NCBI GenBank assembly: GCA_964016885.1
Contig: OZ024741.1
Location: forward strand, 303,366,001 to 303,430,000
Origin: Eledone cirrhosa
Lineage: Eukaryota
Reading direction: 5' to 3'
Length of the DNA stretch: 64,000 nt
Shown here: positions 12,301-51,005 of the stretch, piece after piece
Position numbering within the stretch: position 1 is the stretch's first letter
Layout: the number at the start of each line of letters is the position of its first letter
Made by a program: the position numbers and the translations under genes
The notes under the pieces: model-generated
What the model saw: only the letters and a program-made list of their open reading frames with translations
Databases searched by the model: none
What the model was told of the DNA's origin: nothing

Positions 12301-12774
12301 TTATTCACTGGACAGTACACCGGATAACCCACTACTCCACGGAGTATCTACCAGATAACGATGTGTAACATATTGTGTATATGTGGGAGGGCCCTCACCC
12401 ACACTCCGTCTAGACTCTATACATCGTCAACCAATGCCAAGCCCCAGGCCTTACTATAAGAGGGTAACTCAGCATCATCTATTTCACTACTCATATGTGC
12501 TATACATCAGATACCATACATTATACTCTATAATCCTTATATTCTTTAATCCCATATCATATTATTATTTTGATATTTAATTATATTTTTAAATTAACAT
12601 TTTTCTGATTTTTAAATTTTAAATTAAATTTATTTTAAATAAAAATAAATGATTTTGTTATTTTATTTATTCGATAAATTTTTTTATTTCTTTTCTTCCA
12701 TTTTTCCATTTAATCATTTTGTCATTTCTGGCATCAAACTAATTTTTTTTCCTTATCCCCTTTATTGTTCATTC

Positions 12775-13832
12775 CTCATACCTTATAGCTTCCACCTCAT
12801 ACCTCATACCTTCTACCTTCTACCTCATACTTTCTACCTTCTACCTTCTACCTTCTACCTCATACTTTCTACCTTCTACCTTCTACCTTCTACCTCATAC
12901 TTTCTACCTTCTACCTTCTACCTTCTACCTTCTACTTCATGCCTCATATTTTCTACCTCATACCTTATACTTCATACCTTATACCTTATACCTCATATCT
13001 TCTACCTCATACTTTCTACCTTATTCCTTATAGCTTCTACCTTCTACCTTCTACCTCATACTTTCTACCTTCTACCTTCTACCTTCTACCTCATACTTTC
13101 TACCTTCTACCTTCTACCTCATACCTCATATTTTCTACCTCATACCTCATACCTTCTACCTCATACCTTATACCTTATACCTCATATCTTCTACCTCATA
13201 CTTTCTACCTTATTCCTTATACCTTCTACCTTCTACCTCATACCTTCTACCTCATACCTTCTACCTTCTACCTTCTACCTAATAACTTCTACCTTCTAAC
13301 TTCTACCTCATACCTTCTACTTTATACCTTCTACCTCATACCTTCTGCTTCATACCTCATACCTTCTACCTCATACCTTCCACCCCATACCTTCTACCTT
13401 CTACCATATAGCTTCTACCTTCTATCTCACACCTTCTACCTTCTACCTTCTACCTCATAACTTCTACCTTCTACCTTCTACCTTCTACTTCACACCTACC
13501 TTCTGCCTTCTACCTTCTACCTCAGACCTTCTATCTTTTACCTTCTACCTCATACCTCATACCTTCTACCTTCTACCTTCTACCTTCTGCCTTCTACCTT
13601 CTGCCATCTACCTCATACCCCATACCTCTGGCCTTCTACCTTATACCTTCTAGCTCATACCTCATACATTCTACCTCATACCTTCTACCACATATCTTCT
13701 ACATTCTAACTCCTACCATATACCTTCTAGCTCATACCTCATACATTCTACCTCATACCTTCTACCACATATCTTCTAAATTCTAACTCCTACCATATAC
13801 CATCTACATCAAACCTACCTTCTACCTTCTAT
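12775..13832. repeat. 7-bp-period satellite (TACCTTC/TACCTCA/TACCTTA variants)
   Basis: About 1 kb of heptamer variants with higher-order duplications. Confidence 0.95.
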
Positions 13833-15604: not shown

Positions 15605-16687
15605 TTAAGTTCCATATAAGATGTGAAAGAGAAGTAGAAGATTTTTTTTATCAAATCTTCTGAAAGAATGATTATGATTATTCCAGCGATCTTTAAATTT
15701 TGTAGAAGTGGCACCGACATAGTTAAATATATTATCACTAGTTTTAACTGTGCATTTATAGACTACGTTTTTATCTAAACACTTATTTTGTAAAGGGCAG
15801 TTTGAGTTGATTCTACAGTTACATTTTACGGAGTTGTTGTTGCTCGGAACGGTACTATTATGTTGGATATTGCTAGAAATATTATTGCTATTATGGTTGT
15901 TTTGGTTAGGGTTTAAATTTAAGTTTCTATTATTAATTCTATTTATATTTTGTGCTATGTTCATAGTAGTAGAGTAGGATAGTTTTATAGTATGTCTGTT
16001 AAAGATTGAGTGGTATCTGTGGGCTTTAGGAAAACATTTGTCTAGTGCTTTAAAGAATAGTTTTGCTAAAGGTATTTTAACGCTTAATGAGAATGGGGGT
16101 GAGTACCAAATAATATTTCTAGTTCTAGTTCTTTTGTTTGGTTTAGAGTTTAAGTTAAATTGTTTATTATTATTATAATTAATACTAGGGGTATTTGCCA
16201 TGTTATTGTTGTCAATGTATTTAATTTCATTCGAATACCCTGCTCTATTTAAAGCTTCATTATAATATTCAGCCTTATCATCAAAAATATTTTTATTAGC
16301 AGAGATGCGTGAAATTCGTTGTTGGACACTATTGACAATAGTGTTCTTAATAGATCTAGGATGATTAGAGTTAAAACTTACGTAATTTAGATTCTCATTA
16401 ATTTTATGGAATGAATAGTAGAGCCCTGTGCTAAGGTTTAATGTTATGTCTAAAAAGTTAACGATTTCATAGTTATTCTCTATTTCTAACTTAAGGTTAT
16501 AATTATTGAAGAATTGTATTATGGATTTTCTTTTCCGATTAATTTCACTATTGCTATGGTTTTCAATTAAAATCAGCATATCATCATGATATAAACTACC
16601 GGTCATCTTTGGCATTTTCCTATGCAGTGTATTATTAATAAATAAGCTCACAAGATCCGTTATTTGCGCCGAGTCTGATGATCCCAT
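15605..16687 (-). pseudogene. Penelope RT C-half/thumb plus GIY-YIG endonuclease ORF remnant
   Basis: 360-aa ORF; in-frame stops upstream (TGA near 16725, TAG near 16860) and a frameshift near 15640. Confidence 0.88.
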
Positions 16688-17263
16688 AGTGATATCAAAA
16701 TTATTTTTTCTATCGGCTCTTGTTCAGAGATGATTGTTGAATTCTATTAAAGTTTTCCCTGCTGTTAGAATGATATGCATTTCATCACTAGATACATTTG
16801 TATGTTTAGATGCGTAGATAAGAGCCCTATTAAGTAAACTAGGAGTAATGGAGGAGTACTAATTTGCAATATCCATTTGAATGAATTTTTTGTTATGTTT
16901 AAATTTTATGTTATTGAACCAATCTATAACTTCATTAGTACCGTTCCATAGTTTCAGGTGTGATTTTTCTTTAAGTTGCGGTATGATTCTATCTAATATA
17001 TGTTTACTAATTATGCCTAAGTCTGATTTAGATGGTGCTATAAGTCAGACTGGTAGTTCTATTTCAAAGTTTCTTTTGTGGTCTTTCAGGTTAATTTTCG
17101 GTCTTCTGGGTATAAAGAGTTCAGTCCTATTTTGGATGCCTAATTTATGAATTATTTCAGAAGCTTCTCTATTTAACGTTGAAAGATCTTCATTTGTTGT
17201 TATTTTGTAGTTTATTTTGAGTTCTTTCAGAATAAGGTTATTATATTGGTCTTTTTGCATTCC

Positions 17264-17757: not shown

Positions 17758-18052
17758 GTAGAACTCTGCTGGGTTATATCCGAAGTAGTGGAGCATTAGT
17801 AGTTATATCCCGTTATATCCGAAGTAGTAGAGTTTGGTAGAAGTAGTTCCGAGAACAATTGTTTCACTATAGTCGAATCATCAGCTGATGAAACGAGTAA
17901 GGTGAAACAATTGTCATTACAACAGCAGAGGTCCGACGAACTTTTGATTCCAGAGTCAGGCCAGATCGACACAGATCGAACCTTGAGCTGTTCAGCAGCG
18001 AAAGTGCGTCACCAATCAATAAACGTAATGAAGGCTTAAGAAATCATCCTTG

Positions 18053-21124: not shown

Positions 21125-23880
21125 TTATAGGAACAGTGTTCCATCCACCATCTGAGTGAGTTTCGTGGTCAGTGTCCAAGTCTCAGACCCGTACAACAGC
21201 ACAGACTCCACTACAGAGGCAGATCTTCAGGTCTTTACGAAGGTCCGACTTCCACACCGATCTCAAGCTGTAGCACGCCGCCCAGGCTTTGCTCTTCCTC
21301 GCGACCACGTCATCTTCCGTATTCCCAATCTTTGCTCTCAAATACAGGAAGTCCTCAACCAATTCTAGCGGCTTCCCGCCTACATTAGTAATCTTCTCTC
21401 GCTTTTTAATATTCTCTACCAGATATTTCGTCTTAATCTCATTCATTCTCAGCCCCACACTCATCGATACAGTCTCCACCTCCTGCATCAAATCCTCTGC
21501 CTCCTTCACTGTGTTTGTCACCAAAACTATGTCGTCAGCAAATTCAGCATCCGATATATTTTTTCGCCTTAACTCTCCTGCTCTGAGCCGGTGTTAAAGT
21601 AAAGCCAGAGTCCTGGTGTTTCTCCAGCCGAAGGCGCATACAATAGGCCACTGCGATGATAAAAAGGTAGGGAGCCAATGTATCTCCCTGGAGCACTCCA
21701 GCCAGTATCTCAAAGAACTCTGTCATCCCATCAGGTGTAATGGCTTGTGCTTTGGTGTTGGTGTAGAGCAGTAATATCAGGTCCACTATCATCTTGGGGA
21801 TTCCATAAGCCTGTAAGATCTTTATCAGGCAGTGACGGTCCACAGAATCAAAGGCCTTCCTAAAGTCAATGAAAACCATGACCGCAGGAAGGCACTTTGC
21901 TCTAGATCCCTCTAATATCCGCCTCAGCATCAGGATGTGACTGGTGGTTGATCTTCCCTATCTGAAGCCGTTCTGGTTGTCCCTGAGCTTCTTCTCCATC
22001 TCGAGCTGGATCCTGTTAAGAATCATCCCGTTGAGGGTCTTTGCCACAAATGACGTCAGTGAGATCCCCCTGTAGTTGTTGGTGTTAGAGAGATCTCCCT
22101 TCTTTGGCACTGGGACGATGTTTTTGATCCTCCACTGATTCGGGGCAACTCCTTTCTCCAGTGCCTGGTTACAGAACTCCAGGATGATATGAAAATTACA
22201 CCTCTTCATCACCTCTGATGCCACTCCATCTTCTTCATGAGCCTTGCCATCCTTGATCTTCTTCTTGGCTCTCTGAAGCTGCTCTCTGGTGAAGGGCCTT
22301 GTCTCAATATCCAGTTCCTCAAACAGCCGCCTGATCTGCCCAGTGTTCTAGGCTGTGGAGGGCGGCTCTCCTAGTAGGGTCCTATAATGGTCCAGCCATT
22401 TCTCCTTCCTACCCTCGTGCCCTGTTCCCTGGATCTGACTCGAACACCTCTTCCTCCCTGTGATCTCGTTGATGATTATCCAGCTCTCCTTACATCCAGA
22501 CCTGCCAACCGCTCTCTCCACACTTCTGATCTCATTTATCAGTCCTCTTCTCTGGCCTCAGTGTAAGCGGTACAGAGTTCTTCCCTCATCATCTCCACAT
22601 TCTCCTTCCTCTCTTCCGTAGGATCAGCACGGAATTGGTCCTTGGCAACTTTCAGGTGTTCTCTGGCTGCACACACTTTTGGGTCTGCAGAGCTGACGTG
22701 CTTCATTTTGTTCTTTCTCCTCGGCACCAGGGTCTCACTTGCTTCCGCCACTGCCTTGTTGAAGTACCCGTACCTCCTCGTCACACTCTCCTCAGTCCCT
22801 CCAATCTCTCTCTCTCTCTCTCCTCTGTCTCTCCACATAGAGCACTGGACCTGTTCCTCACTTCAACTGTGAACCTCTCCTGTAGCTTAACTTCCTTGAA
22901 AGCTCCCCAGTCATAGATTGCTCTCTGGGGCTGAGCCTTGCTCTTTCTTAAGCTCACTCGGACATCACTCATAACAAGCCGATGGTCACTGCCCAGTGTA
23001 CTGAAATAGTTGTATGGTTCTGTGTTCAGAACACTATTCCGCCACTTTTTCCTCACCAGAATGAAATCAATCTGGGACTTGGACAGGTGCCTATCTGAGA
23101 TGTAGGTCCACATCTTCTCCGGATTCTTCCTAAACCTTAGGTTGGTTGCTATCAAGTTCGCCTCCAGCAGGGTGTCTCTCGGTAGTCTTCCATTTCGGTT
23201 GATGTTGTTATGGAAGTACCAGCAAGGATCTTCACTGCTCTCCTTACTCAGATGTGCATTGAAGTCCCCCATAACAAGCAGGATGTTGTGAGCTTGTGTG
23301 GTGTTGACAGCTCTACACACCTCGTCATGGAACTCTTCCGCACTCACATCATTGTCTCCCTCGGTTAGACTATAGGCTAAGATGACTGTCAGTCTCGGGT
23401 TTCCATTGAAGGTAACCCTCAACACTCGCGGGGAGACAGGTATTATTTCCCTCACCAATAGACTGGTTTTTGCGCTGAAAACAAAACCCACTCCTCCTAC
23501 TGCAGCATTGGTCATGTTCCTCACTGCTGATGTGGTCATGAGCTGGCTCCTCTTCCCAATCATCACACTCCTCACGAGCTCATCGTGTAGGATCCTGTGT
23601 TCTTGGATCGCAAATATCTGCATACCACTCTCCTCGAACAGATGACCCAACTCCTCCGTCTTCTCTAGCGTCTGAATAGTCCTCACATTCAGAGTGCCCA
23701 TTTTAATGGCTCTTCTGCAGGACAAAACTGCATTCTCTATATTTGTCTCAGAGACAACTGATCCATCATCCACTGGCCCTCCCTGTGGCTCTAAGCCAGC
23801 AGAGTCATAACGACCAAACCGCTCCTTGACAGTGCAGTTAGGGGCTCTAACATTAGTGCTGTTAAATACACTCTCCATGT
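21125..23880 (-). mobile_element. RTE-like LINE, near-complete APE + RT with frameshifts, 3' end missing
   Basis: GTLNVRT, AIQEHR, GDFNAH, QIDFILV, SDHRLV; PVPKKGDLS..NYRGISL, QNGFR, FIDFRKAFDSV, GVLQGDTLAPYLF, FADD. Confidence 0.95.
22781..23878 (-). pseudogene. LINE apurinic-type endonuclease domain ORF
   Basis: 365-aa ORF carrying the APE motifs listed for the parent LINE. Confidence 0.9.
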
Positions 23881-23924
23881 TCTTTTCAATGGCTGATAAT
23901 ACCTTACCGGCGCCACTCGAATAA

Positions 23925-24086
23925 GGTAATTATTTAACCCATAAATGGGGACCTAACAGGTACTACTACTCCGGGCCAGAGAAGACCTGGGAGTTATGAC
24001 AACTAAGAGGTAACTCCCCATTCCCCACAGCTCCTGAACTTCCGAACTGGAGCCTTGCCACTGGAATGTAGTTTAATGTCATACCC

Positions 24087-43580: not shown

Positions 43581-43657
<77 letters not shown>

Positions 43658-43670
43658 AGAAAAAGAGAAT

Positions 43671-44158
43671 CAGTGTTGCGACGAATGGAATTTATTGGAC
43701 ATATTACAATCGTTTCTCTGGCAACCAGCTCGAGGCACGATCGATGTGATGATCGAACCTGACTCTGAAAATCGCAGGGTCCTCAGATACCTCTTGATTC
43801 TAAGAAGCAGATTTTACTTATAAGGATACGATTCTAATATGTCCAATAAATTCCATTCGTCGCAACACTGTGATATCATACTCTGCTCTATGAGAGCATC
43901 GAGTGCTCAAACGGCCGCTTTAAGCATCCAACACCAATTATATATATATATATATAGTTTTAATATAGATGAGATTCTACAGGACTAGAACTGTTTCATT
44001 CTTTAGAAATCATCAGGAATGAGATTCCTGATGATTTCTAAAGAATGAAACAGTTCTAGTCCTGTAGAATCTCATCTATATTAAAACTTTTATACTCTGC
44101 AATGTATTGAGTACCTTACTTACTGTGGCTACCTCCGATTCAACCCGGAATAACGTAC

Positions 44159-44224
<66 letters not shown>

Positions 44225-44475
44225 GGTGTTGGATGCTTAAAGCGGCCGTTTGAGCACTCGATGCTCTCATAGAGCAGAGTATGATATCACAGTGTTGCGA
44301 CGAATGGAATTTATTGGACATATTAGAATCGTTTCCTTATAAGTAAAATCTGCTTCTTAGAATCAAGAGGTATCTGAGGACCCTGCGATTTTCAGAGTCA
44401 GGTTCGATCATCACATCGATCGTGCCTCGAGCTGGTTGCCAGAGAAACGATTGTAATATGTCCAATAAATTCCAT
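43671..44475. repeat. nested inverted-repeat structure with HHRs
   Basis: About 270-bp near-perfect outer arms, each with an internal ~46-bp IR; central perfect palindrome 43956-44088 with 65-bp arms. Confidence 0.93.
44019..44075 (+). ncRNA. type I hammerhead ribozyme
   Basis: ATGAGATTC-CTGATGA-T-TTC(TAAA)GAA-T-GAAACAG-TTCTAGTC-CTGTA-GAATCTCAT: 9-bp stem I, 4-bp stem III, GUA triplet. Confidence 0.8.
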
Positions 44476-44516
44476 ATATATATATATATATAAATTCCAT
44501 ATATATATAAATTCCA

Positions 44517-44555
<39 letters not shown>

Positions 44556-44581
44556 GTATATATATGTGTATATATATTTAT

Positions 44582-45515
44582 GTCAGGTCACCAGTTGGTG
44601 CTACTGGTAACATGTATTCCAGTACAACCTGTCTCATGGTCGGGTCGTTGGCGACTAAACTGGCAACCCCACCAAGGTTTCTTGGTGAGGAGGGTGACTT
44701 TGGACATCCTGCAGGACTAAAAACAAAACCTGTCAAAGGGCAAAGGAGCTCTTAAGAGTCAATGGCCATCCAAAATCACCGGGAGAGATGACCCCTTAGC
44801 CTTTGTCAAGGCAGAATTCTAGGAGAAGGAAAACTCTGATATAACACCTGCAACCCTGATGGTATCCAATGATGTTGACTTGTTCTTCTTTTTGGTAAAT
44901 ATCATCTTGGTTAAGAGAGTGGGACTGGCTTTGTGCAGTGCCTTTGCTCACTATAAAAGCTTCACGGCACAGGCATTGCTTTATATCTGGAGATCTCTCT
45001 GCACTTGTCGTCACATGGTACCATGGGCCCAGCACTATGTGTCAATAATTGTCACAAGTGTAGTGTTTGTACCAGAGTTTTCAAGTCGCTGGCTGGACTA
45101 AAAAATCACACTCGTTCAGCGCATCGGTAGGGGTTCTCCTACATGGATATAAAGTAGGGGCCGTACTCGAAAATGAGTTGGCAGCCACCATGTATGTATG
45201 TATGTATGTATGTTTGTGTGTATATATGTATCTATATATGTATGTATGTATATGTGGATGTATGTATGTATATGTGTATGTATGTATGTATATATATATG
45301 TTCACGGCACAGGCATTGCTTTGTATCTGGAGATCTCTCTCCACTTGTCGTCACATGGTACCATGGGCCCAGCACTATGTGTCAATAGTTGTCACAGGTG
45401 TAGTGTTTATGCCAGAGTTTTCAAGTCGCTGGCTGGACTAAAAAGTCACGCTCGTTAGGGGTTTTCCTACATGGATATAAAGTAGTGGCCGTACTCGAAA
45501 ACGAGTTGGCAGCCA

Positions 45516-45518
<3 letters not shown>
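44582..45518 (+). mobile_element. bipartite RTE-derived non-autonomous element with duplicated 3' end
   Basis: GGAGAAGGAAAACTCTGA (RTE 5'UTR-like) fused to a 3' end encoding RVFKSLAGLKSHAR; 44961-45190 repeated at 45301-45518. Confidence 0.7.
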
Positions 45519-45574
<56 letters not shown>

Positions 45575-46057: not shown

Positions 46058-46873
46058 GTATTTTTAGGAATATAGGACGCACTCTAAATTTAACATAAAT
46101 ATCCAGGAAATCTAAAATTAAGGGGAATTAACACTATTAACGCTATTAAAATTTTAATCACTTTCAAATCTTATTAAATCATGACTACTGTCATCCTCAT
46201 TGATTTCCTGGCTGCCACCCTCTTCCAGTTCCTGAAATTCATCATCGTCCTCACATTCCCCGGGATCATCCCTGTTTTCAGAATCACTTGTATCGCTATC
46301 ATTATAGAGAAAACCCTCTTCGGTGCCATCTAGGGCGTTGTTGTTGCTACGTTTTTTGAGAGCTTTTATAACTGTTTCGGTTTTCGCACCACTCGCACGA
46401 GTGTTTCACCCACTGGGTTACCTGGGAAGAATTAGGTCTCTTCATACGTCCTATCGGTGTCAGTTCACGTTGCGGGTCCTTCATCCAATTATCCCATTCC
46501 TCACTCATGTGTGCCTTAAAAAGCTTGTTTAGTGAAACATGAAGGGGTTGTAATTGAGAAGTCAGTCCACCAGGTATGACAACTATTCCAGTGTTTAACT
46601 TCTTAACCCTCGAAATTGGTCCCAAACAAGAAGTGATGGTCTTTTGAGTAAATCACCATGACGCCGTGACCATACATTATCTAGCCATAACTTTCCGCTA
46701 TTTTCGTCCATCCACCCCTTGGTGCGGACATGAATAACAACTCCTAATGGAAAAATGTCTTTTGGAAATGTACTGTAATTACCCCATACTTGACCTTCGC
46801 GTTTTAAGATGCACAGTGATTTTGAGGATCAAATTTGGGGAAAAAAATCGCGTCCTATATCCCGAAAAATACG
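46058..46873 (-). mobile_element. internally deleted pogo/Tigger-like DNA transposon
   Basis: TIRs CGTATTTTT.GG.ATATAGGACGC; VIPGGLTSQLQPLHVSLNKLFK..W..WM..LTPIGRMKRP..V.QWV (DDE_1-like, catalytic D mutated to H). Confidence 0.9.
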
Positions 46874-50412: not shown

Positions 50413-51005
50413 AACATTGACATAATCTTGGAGGCTAAATATTTCATCCTGGGATAACATTGACATAATCTTTAAGGCTAAATATTTCATCCTACGATAA
50501 CAATGACATAATCTTTAAGGCTAAAAATTTGATTCTGCAATGACATTGTCATAATGTTAGGGTTAAACATTTGATTCTGGGATGACATTGTCATAATCTA
50601 ATCTTAGGGTTAAACATTTGATTCTTGGATGACATTGTCATAATCTTAGGGTTAAACACTTGATTCTGCAATGACATTGTCATAATCTTTGGGGTTAAGC
50701 ATTTGATTCTGGGATGACATTGTCATAATCTTCGGGTTAAACATTTGATTCTGGGATGACAGTGTTATAATCTTAGGGTTAAACATTTGATTCTGCAATG
50801 ACATTGTCATAATCTTTGGGTTAAACATTTGATTATGCAATGACATTGTCATAATGGTGGAGGCTAAATGTTTGATTCTAGCATGACATTGTCATAATGT
50901 TGGAGGCTTTATATTTGATTCTGGAATGATATTAGCATAATATTGGAGGCTAAACCTTTGATTATTTGATACATTGACATAATCTTTAAAACCAGGCATT
51001 TGAAT
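50413..51005. repeat. 42-bp minisatellite, about 14 units
   Basis: Unit TTAGGGTTAAACATTTGATTCTGGGATGACATTGTCATAATC; 14-aa periodicity in ORF 50652-50852. Confidence 0.95.

What the first reader, a model, noticed from the sequence alone, without database searches (positions are those of the whole stretch)
43671..44475. Three-level nested palindrome with mirror-image hammerheads at its centre
Seen: about 270-bp outer arms (I see one mismatch) each contain their own ~46-bp inverted repeat. They flank a different element whose 65-bp perfect palindrome places an HHR core on both strands (full 9-bp stem I only on +). (TA)n spacers separate the modules. Near identity implies recent formation or conversion. 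Inference: an inverted duplication centred on a (TA)n target that later received a second insertion; a transcript would form long dsRNA, a potential ADAR or Dicer substrate.
Basis: partly seen in the sequence, partly recalled or inferred. Interest (0 to 1): 0.75.

Follow-up and report, generated by a model that had tools for sequence, protein, structure and literature searches.

The report
Penelope stubs mirrored across TA repeat
The nested mirror is real and is built from two short, naturally palindromic leftovers of known Penelope-type jumping genes, one of which was likely copied backwards by a DNA-copying slip at a TA repeat, likely when the other inserted; the hammerhead motifs are predicted to be locked in a long hairpin, so this is likely an ordinary scar.

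Summary
The palindromes are real. The two inner levels are the normal insertion form of two abundant Penelope-like element (PLE) families: an inverted arm without tail, a forward arm, and a tail, set in (TA)n.

The centre (B, 43957-44159) is the ribozyme-plus-tail end of a PLE. I found its parent reading frame in this genome, with Hydra-clade motifs. The genome has 1269 pattern matches to this fold-back point. It lies 30 nt after the parent's TATA box and has an extra G in 774 of 1269 matches, so it likely marks the capped RNA start. The scan reported this before on other DNA of this genome.

The arms (A, A') are one older stub of a second PLE family. Only their tail-to-tail duplication (254 nt without TA, 1 mismatch) is specific to this locus. 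It is likely a recent template switch at (TA)n, about as young as B. Coupling to B's insertion is slightly favoured but not shown; one analogue was found.

The 9-bp stem I is partly a junction accident (6 bp in the parent). No RNA data exist here, and no read spans the junctions.

The parts
43586..43654 (.). (TA)n run at the tail-less end of element A
   Evidence: family copies abut TA at this end
43655..43815 (-). A, long inverted arm without tail (PLE family A end; no canonical hammerhead found in it)
   Evidence: differs from family majority at 4 of 161 positions; parent with RT-thumb and GIY-YIG pieces in L166
43816..43826 (.). A, copy-specific junction filler, shared by both outer arms
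   Evidence: junctions differ from copy to copy; no third copy above 84% identity among the 40 scored of 2445 candidates
43827..43938 (+). A, short forward arm and tail, carrying two copy-specific deletions
   Evidence: comparison with family copies
43939..43956 (.). (TA)9 between the A tail and the tail-less end of B
   Evidence: sequence
43957..44020 (-). B, inverted arm without tail; hammerhead core with only a 4-bp stem I
   Evidence: 0 of 55 other B minis carry a tail on both arms
44021..44021 (+). extra G in front of the predicted RNA start (parent has C here); likely a copy of the 5' cap
   Evidence: 774 of 1269 pattern matches have G; 57 of 57 promoter-bearing copies have C
44022..44088 (+). 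B, forward arm from the predicted start (+1 = 44022). Type I hammerhead motif: core 44028-44034, GAAA 44047-44050, predicted cut after 44066, templated stem I 44022-44027 / 44067-44072
   Evidence: TATAAA 30 nt upstream in 48 of 53 long copies
44089..44159 (+). B tail; in the parent it is 5' leader upstream of the ORF (ATG at +182)
   Evidence: L122/L123/L131 run on into the ORF
44160..44221 (.). (TA)31 between the B tail and A'
44222..44475 (-). A', inverted near-identical duplicate of 43685-43938, tail towards B, truncated by 30 nt; keeps the ancestral base at the one mismatch
44476..44581 (.). distal junction: AT microhomology, two further 7-nt repeats of the A' end between (AT)n runs, then interrupted (TA)n

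Best explanation
Two short stubs of Penelope-like retrotransposons, each naturally palindromic, sit in TA repeats, and the older stub was likely copied backwards by a DNA template switch at the TA repeat, likely while the break that admitted the younger stub was repaired. Step 1 (shown): A and B are members of two high-copy families with the inverted-arm + forward-arm + tail layout, and both have RT/GIY-YIG parents in this genome. Step 2 (inferred): each stub is two cDNAs primed from TA ends on both strands, one from the tail end and one from the arm/tail boundary, joined head to head. For B both ran to the capped start of a short RNA made from the element's TATA promoter. Step 3 (shown): A diverged from its family first, and A' carries all those differences. 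Step 4 (inferred): a 3' end in (TA)n, which is self-complementary, switched template, copied 254 nt of A and returned at an AT microhomology (order 3-2-1-4). Step 5 (weakly inferred): this happened with B's insertion. No function is predicted; a read-through RNA would fold into long duplexes that prevent the hammerhead fold. Module identity is about 0.95 and a DNA-level switch about 0.8; the confidence given covers the whole chain, including step 5.
For: Families. Parents: the L131 ORF of 632 aa follows the B tail directly; ORF, UTR, arm and tail with an inverted tail-less arm occur in 5 of 5 long loci examined; the A parent is in L166. Two fixed outer ends: 0 of 55 B minis have two tails, 55 of 55 have TA on both sides, and 34 of 55 tail-less arms end 12-13 nt after stem I. 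This matches the two RT start sites and both-strand extension of PMC11167929. RNA start. Among 29 copies picked without junction bias, 16 forward arms start at +1 to +9, 1 near +15, none at -1 to -13 and 12 further upstream (by eye). Age: A differs from its family at 4 of 161 and 1 of 46 positions but from A' at 1 of 254; P = 4e-5 if the arms were as old as A. B's arms are identical over 65 bp, and 5 other loci are 100% identical to it over 116 nt. Fold-back at TA recurs: 3 A tails (16-18 nt), 1 B tail (39 nt) and 4 other cases of 22-36 nt, two of which abut a B end. Analogue L230: 235 nt in two modules, 1 mismatch, tail-to-tail, abutting a B tail. L1 precedent for fold-backs with insertions and for cap G: PMC11702581 (passages).
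Against: None of 55 other B minis has an inverted duplicate of one flank on its other side; 2 of 55 gave hits, one checked and due to a shared 96%-identical repeat, one only 16 nt. A test for fold-back copies next to B ends showed no enrichment (1 of 168 B ends against 9 of 3094 other TA runs) and missed known cases. In the analogue, B lies outside the arms, not between them, and that locus was fetched because it held B. In family A no excess of G was seen at the common 5' end (23 G, 29 A, 32 T of 84, by eye). Part of B's G could come from the cDNA folding on stem I. Gene conversion between the arms could hide an older duplication. No read spans the junctions.
Confidence: 0.45

Rival explanations
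1. One reading: A first folded back on its own (TA)n to give a spacer-less tail-to-tail palindrome, and B later inserted independently into the central TA run (same parts, two separate events).
For: Tail-to-tail fold-backs across pure TA exist without any insertion between the arms (L224, L226, L228, L056). B targets TA runs (55 of 55). A' has 1 mismatch while B's arms have none. No enrichment of fold-backs at B ends was found.
Against: The spacer-less cases found have arms of only 16-39 nt. Two independent, equally young events at one TA run are needed, when TA runs are very many (2199 in the DNA held). One mismatch against none is not a significant age difference.
Confidence: 0.35
2. A' is a retrocopy or RNA self-priming product: a read-through RNA of this A copy was reverse transcribed from its tail and inserted beside its source.
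For: A' begins exactly at the family's tail-end priming site and is truncated at the other end. PMC3846280 says that self-priming on a sense template would give tail-to-tail repeats (passage).
Against: No third copy elsewhere (best other hit 84%). No promoter is known for this stub. A DNA fold-back predicts the same start point. Short fold-backs also occur on flanking sequence that I did not recognise as an element end (L192, L211).
Confidence: 0.1
3. The outer duplication is an assembly or fold-back read artefact.
For: The locus-specific junctions were not seen in the contigs or reads laid, though these cannot show absence. Palindromes in TA runs are hard to assemble.
Against: The mirror is only 254 nt, has an asymmetric 247-nt spacer and has different flanks on each side. 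The arms differ at one base where A' keeps the family state. A second locus has the same kind of structure.
Confidence: 0.07
4. The structure is a selected regulatory RNA (ribozyme switch, or editing / small-RNA source).
For: The hammerhead motif covaries in a sister family. Duplexes of 142, 128 and 65 bp are predicted.
Against: All parts are very young repeat copies. The hammerhead fold has probability 0.001 in the isolated 57-mer and the stem I test pair 0.000 in B or the whole structure. No host exon was recognised among 65 window ORFs scanned (short exons would be missed).
Confidence: 0.03

Closest known systems
Hydra clade of C-terminal-endonuclease Penelope-like elements (Craig et al. 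2021, PMC8557442; abstract, passages, sections 11 and 15 read)
   Same: [quoted passage not shown] Inverted 5'-truncated copy with a one-sided tail.
   Different: Tails are about 70-80 nt here against 30-40 in the paper. The stubs carry no ORF. No phylogeny was built, and the named consensus files in the supplement were not read.
Poseidon of Anolis carolinensis in vitro (Frangieh et al. 2024, PMC11167929; parts 1-2 of 4 read)
   Same: Two internal RT start sites bounding the tail, both strands cut and extended, uncleaved RNA as template, hammerhead inactive without protein.
   Different: There the tail lies inside the ORF; in B it is upstream of the ATG (+182). Head-to-head joining and flank duplication are not addressed in the parts read.
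Penelope insertions of Adineta vaga (Arkhipova et al. 2013, PMC3846280; passages)
   Same: Inverted pLTRs with palindromic junction, tail on one side, TATA and Inr in the pLTR.
   Different: The paper explains head-to-head joins by self-priming on an antisense template. Here the arms stop at the sense start with an extra G and either arm can be the longer, which fits two sense-templated cDNAs.
Minimal type I hammerheads of metazoan PLEs (Cervera and de la Pena 2014, PMC4209133; passages)
   Same: Type I motif in the pLTR; dual motifs on opposite strands close together already described.
   Different: B has U.U instead of the conserved G10.1-C11.1 pair, a 3-bp stem II and a 4-bp stem III.
Four-point template switch, type 3-2-1-4 (Loytynoja and Goldman 2017, PMC5453318; passages)
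   Same: Creates a local inverted repeat; 31% of their high-confidence events (with its mirror case).
   Different: The copied stretch here is 254 nt, and both switches lie at TA/AT sequence.
L1-associated fold-back junctions with insertions (PMC11702581; passages)
   Same: A retro-insertion at the centre of a fold-back; extra 5' G from the cap.
   Different: Kilobase to megabase rearrangements in human cells, not a 254-nt germ-line duplication by a PLE.

Membership tests
EN+ Penelope-like element (B) | parent ORF with RT and C-terminal GIY-YIG endonuclease joined to the repeat | tested here: met
   (motifs read directly; Pfam gave no hit at E <= 0.01 for the B ORFs)
EN+ Penelope-like element (B) | inverted 5'-truncated copy with a tail on one end only | tested here: met
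   0 of 55 minis with two tails; 5 of 5 long loci
EN+ Penelope-like element (A) | linked RT-thumb / GIY-YIG coding sequence upstream of the repeat | tested here: met
   L166; weak PF01541 match, E 0.0018, below the curated cut-off; broken copy, no full ORF found
Hydra clade | RWK-like motif, DKT, CxCX5C linker, no CCHH, CxxC and CxH near E and N | tested here: met
   B parent: RWR, DKT, CNCLNKEAC, CDLC and CMH in most copies against section 11. A parent shows CNC...CPL, CKLC, CKH in fragments only
Hydra clade | (TA)n targeting | tested here: met
   55 of 55 B minis; A copies
Hydra clade | placement in an RT phylogeny | not tested
   no reference sequences fetched
Hydra clade | canonical hammerhead in the repeat | tested here: inconclusive
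   B has the core with U.U at 10.1/11.1; none found in A by the descriptor; no Rfam hit
Type I hammerhead ribozyme | CUGANGA / GAAA / NUH core with stems I-III | tested here: met
   compensatory stem I change in a sister family (4 copies)
Type I hammerhead ribozyme | G10.1-C11.1 pair | tested here: not met
   U.U in the family
Type I hammerhead ribozyme | self-cleavage | not testable with these tools
   active fold is 3.4 kcal/mol above the minimum-energy fold in the 57-mer
Non-LTR retrozyme | head-to-tail tandem units each with a hammerhead | tested here: not met
   head-to-head single unit; definition from bioRxiv 10.64898/2026.07.22.740005
Template-switch inverted repeat (3-2-1-4) | derived state shown against an ancestral allele | not testable with these tools
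   no relative or second haplotype held

The most novel reading that the evidence does not exclude
Penelope-like insertion itself makes local fold-backs. The two cDNAs of B were primed from two copies of the same broken TA end (sister ends, or an end that first copied its neighbour), leaving the stub at the centre of an inverted duplication of the flank. PLE activity at TA repeats would then be a source of new long dsRNA-forming palindromes in this genome, and the stubs would record a two-cDNA, cap-to-cap joining mechanism.
Probability: 0.2. Interest if true: 0.55.

Novelty: new member of a known kind. Interest (0 to 1): 0.3.

Why it matters
As a locus it is probably a neutral scar. Two leads have wider value. 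(1) How PLEs form their tandem and inverted repeats is named as open in PMC8557442 (section 15). The B family gives a countable genomic test: fixed outer ends, a turning point 30 nt after TATA, and an extra G. This favours two sense-templated cDNAs over antisense self-priming. The scan has noted this before in this genome. (2) If PLE insertion causes inverted duplication of flanking DNA at (TA)n, it links these elements to palindrome birth. One analogue was found, but no enrichment.

Tried and rejected
Rfam scan: no hit. No RNA holder listed, so there is no evidence on expression. Contigs and RAD reads laid on 44222-44500 and 43780-44020 showed family copies only, and the tool skipped the repeats at the junctions, so they are uninformative.

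Cap-G test in family A: the first pattern was too tight (6 matches); the second showed no G excess (23 of 84). Search for flank inversions across B minis: none real among 55. The scan for long inverted repeats in 840,874 held bases flagged 3 'inner-TA' cases; 2 were ordinary head-to-head minis and 1 was the analogue. That scan did not list the window's own arms, so it is insensitive and gives a lower bound. The enrichment test at B ends was negative and insensitive.

A hammerhead in A: not found by descriptor or by eye. A (TA)n acting as TATA box for an A transcript: spacing about 40 nt, not convincing. Pfam scan of 65 of the 104 window ORFs listed found no host gene. Literature searches for a cap or twin-priming account of PLE inversions found nothing relevant: 4 listings, unrelated titles; 0 papers; 2 listings, not read; octopus + Penelope + hammerhead, only PMC8557442 relevant. 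Supplements were not read; the consensus files of PMC8557442 may already name A or B.

Full report
OBSERVATION. The window is G000:C2:303366001-303430000 of a 3.0-Gb animal genome. It is likely an octopod; that is my inference and the wording of earlier AI notes, and I did not test it. One search confirms the outer arms (43685-43956 / 44204-44475, 272 nt of which 18 are TA, one mismatch), the perfect 65-bp palindrome with a 3-nt loop, and hammerhead cores on both strands. The inner 46-nt repeat is whole only on the left; on the right it is 32 nt, because A' stops 30 nt short. The left element begins at 43655. Shuffles give at most 18 nt of exact inverted repeat (200 shuffles). Rfam reports nothing.

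THE CENTRE, B. A search with 43957-44150 gave 1548 first-look candidates; the 40 scored were 96-100% identical and all palindromic. Copies read (TA)n, inverted arm, forward arm, tail, (TA)n. Of 55 other minis, none has a tail on both arms, all have TA on both sides, and 34 end the tail-less arm 12-13 nt after stem I. Longer copies carry CCAAT and TATAAA upstream. L122 and L123 run on from the tail into an ORF: L131:1169-3064, 632 aa stop to stop, ATG at +182. Other copies supply the endonuclease end. In 5 of 5 long loci the layout is ORF, UTR, arm, tail, with an inverted tail-less arm at the other end. The motifs RWR, DKT, YRDD, CNCLNKEAC, YIG without CCHH, CDLC and CMH match the Hydra clade description in PMC8557442, section 11. 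Pfam gave no significant hit for this ORF, and I built no tree.

WHY B FOLDS WHERE IT DOES. An exact pattern for the turning point has 1269 genome-wide matches, with loci counted twice when both arms fit, and 0 for the reversed control. In 774 of 1269 a G precedes the first templated A, whereas 57 of 57 promoter-bearing copies have C there. TATAAA lies 30 nt upstream in 48 of the 53 copies where it was found. Among 29 copies retrieved without junction bias, 16 forward arms start at +1 to +9, one near +15, none at -1 to -13 and 12 further up (by eye). G also precedes several arms that start at +2, which folding on stem I would not give. An extra 5' G from the cap is described for L1 (PMC11702581, passage). 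Either arm can be the longer one (L063; many A copies), so the inverted arm is not a copy of the forward cDNA. With the two RT start sites and both-strand extension shown in vitro (PMC11167929), I infer two sense-templated cDNAs joined head to head at the capped start. PMC3846280 proposes antisense self-priming instead. Against my reading: family A shows no G excess (23 of 84), and about 55 of the first 100 G matches have T before the G, which a 2-nt fold-back on stem I would also give (by eye). I reached this reading before the look-ups; earlier notes of the scan say the same for other DNA of this genome, which is not independent support.

THE HAMMERHEADS. The templated stem I is 6 bp (44022-44027 / 44067-44072). 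The other 3 bp are the extra G and two bases of the opposite arm. The family has U.U where the G10.1-C11.1 pair is usual (PMC4209133). A sister family keeps the fold with a compensatory stem I change (4 copies). The active fold scores -9.8 against -13.2 kcal/mol for the best fold of the 57-mer (probability 0.001). The stem I test pair has probability 0.039 in an RNA starting at +1, and 0.000 in whole B or the whole structure, which folds into helices of 142, 128 and 65 bp. Dual hammerheads on opposite strands are already described.

THE ARMS, A AND A'. The arm sequence gave 2445 candidates. The same architecture recurs with variable junctions, and L166 links it to RT-thumb and GIY-YIG coding pieces. 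Among the 40 scored, only the two copies in this window share the junction and two deletions; the next best is 84%. A differs from its family majority at 4 of 161 and 1 of 46 positions, all shared with A', yet A and A' differ at 1 of 254, where A' keeps the family base. So A aged first and was duplicated recently (P = 4e-5 otherwise), unless conversion homogenised the arms. B is equally young: identical arms, and 5 other loci 100% identical over 116 nt. A' ends at an AT microhomology followed by two more 7-nt repeats of its end between (AT)n runs. This fits template switch order 3-2-1-4 (PMC5453318).

HOW COMMON IS THE OUTER LEVEL. Ten of 2199 TA runs were flagged for direct flank inversion, against 28 of 20000 random pairings. 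Five are clear near-identical fold-backs of 22-39 nt, one (77 nt) is more diverged, and four are short or low-complexity. Genome-wide, 3 A tails face an inverted copy across up to about 66 nt, with arms of 16-18 nt. One analogue turned up at C8:37116462-37117974: two modules of 60 and 175 nt duplicated tail to tail with 1 mismatch, another stub inside the 1003-nt spacer, and a B tail 47 nt of TA beyond the right arm. Against coupling: 0 of 55 B minis repeat the window's geometry, and the enrichment test was negative (1 of 168 against 9 of 3094) though insensitive. This is an argument, not a test.

ARTEFACT AND EXPRESSION. Laid contigs and RAD reads showed only family copies, and no RNA holder was listed. 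Neither point is evidence. The short mirror, asymmetric spacer, different flanks and the analogue make an artefact unlikely (0.07). No host exon was recognised among 65 of 104 ORFs scanned.

VERDICT. Real, and explained by known parts: two PLE stubs and one recent local inverted duplication. Papers were seen as follows. PMC8557442: abstract, passages, sections 11 and 15. PMC11167929: parts 1-2 of 4. bioRxiv 10.64898/2026.07.22.740005: parts 1-2 of 5. PMC3846280, PMC4209133, PMC5453318, PMC11702581 and PMC2377424: passages only. No supplements were read. Hammerhead numbering, the NUH rule and the TATA-at-minus-30 rule are recalled. Interest 0.3; new member of a known kind.

Noticed in passing
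L230:3963-5475 (G000:C8:37116462-37117974): Second near-identical tail-to-tail inverted duplication (60 + 175 nt, 1 mismatch) across a compound TA run that holds another stub; a long B copy abuts its right end.
   Followed up: partly
window 15605-16723 (-): 372-aa frame of another PLE family, 40% identical to the B parent over 363 aa, with CNC...CPL and YVG motifs.
   Followed up: partly
window 43872-43915 and 44089-44115: The tails of A and B share ATACTCTGC just after the arm boundary and an ATYGAGTRC word downstream, a candidate RT-binding signal; similar words occur in other families in the loci.
   Followed up: no
L197 near 930; L032 near 486; L120: Sister family of B with covarying hammerhead, the same TATA spacing (about 29 nt) and palindromes centred at the same position.
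   Followed up: partly
window 14310 (-), 17884-17885 (both strands), 21108 (-), 54080 (+): Further hammerhead-core motifs, probably other PLE stubs.
   Followed up: no
window 21183-23929 (-): Broken LINE with endonuclease and RT frames (RTE-like by eye).
   Followed up: no
window 46350-46828 (-): DDE_1 transposase fragments (Pfam PF03184).
   Followed up: no
window 44961-45245 and 45301-45573: Direct duplication of about 340 nt (95% and 86% identical blocks) just right of the structure.
   Followed up: no
L131-L133 (G000:C2:16.675-16.702 Mb); L134-L135 (C8:43.99-44.02 Mb): B-parent copies repeated within segmental duplications, interrupted by LINE copies; L133 also holds an LTR-retroelement-like insertion.
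   Followed up: no
L041 around the B hit: A tail-less B arm lies on the tail side of a forward copy, between two TA runs, instead of at the 5' end.
   Followed up: no
L088:1709-2400; L098:1100-1250: Nested inverted and direct re-copies of element ends around TA runs.
   Followed up: no
window 50414-50987 and 12774-13831: Tandem arrays of 42-43 nt and of 14/21/35 nt.
   Followed up: no
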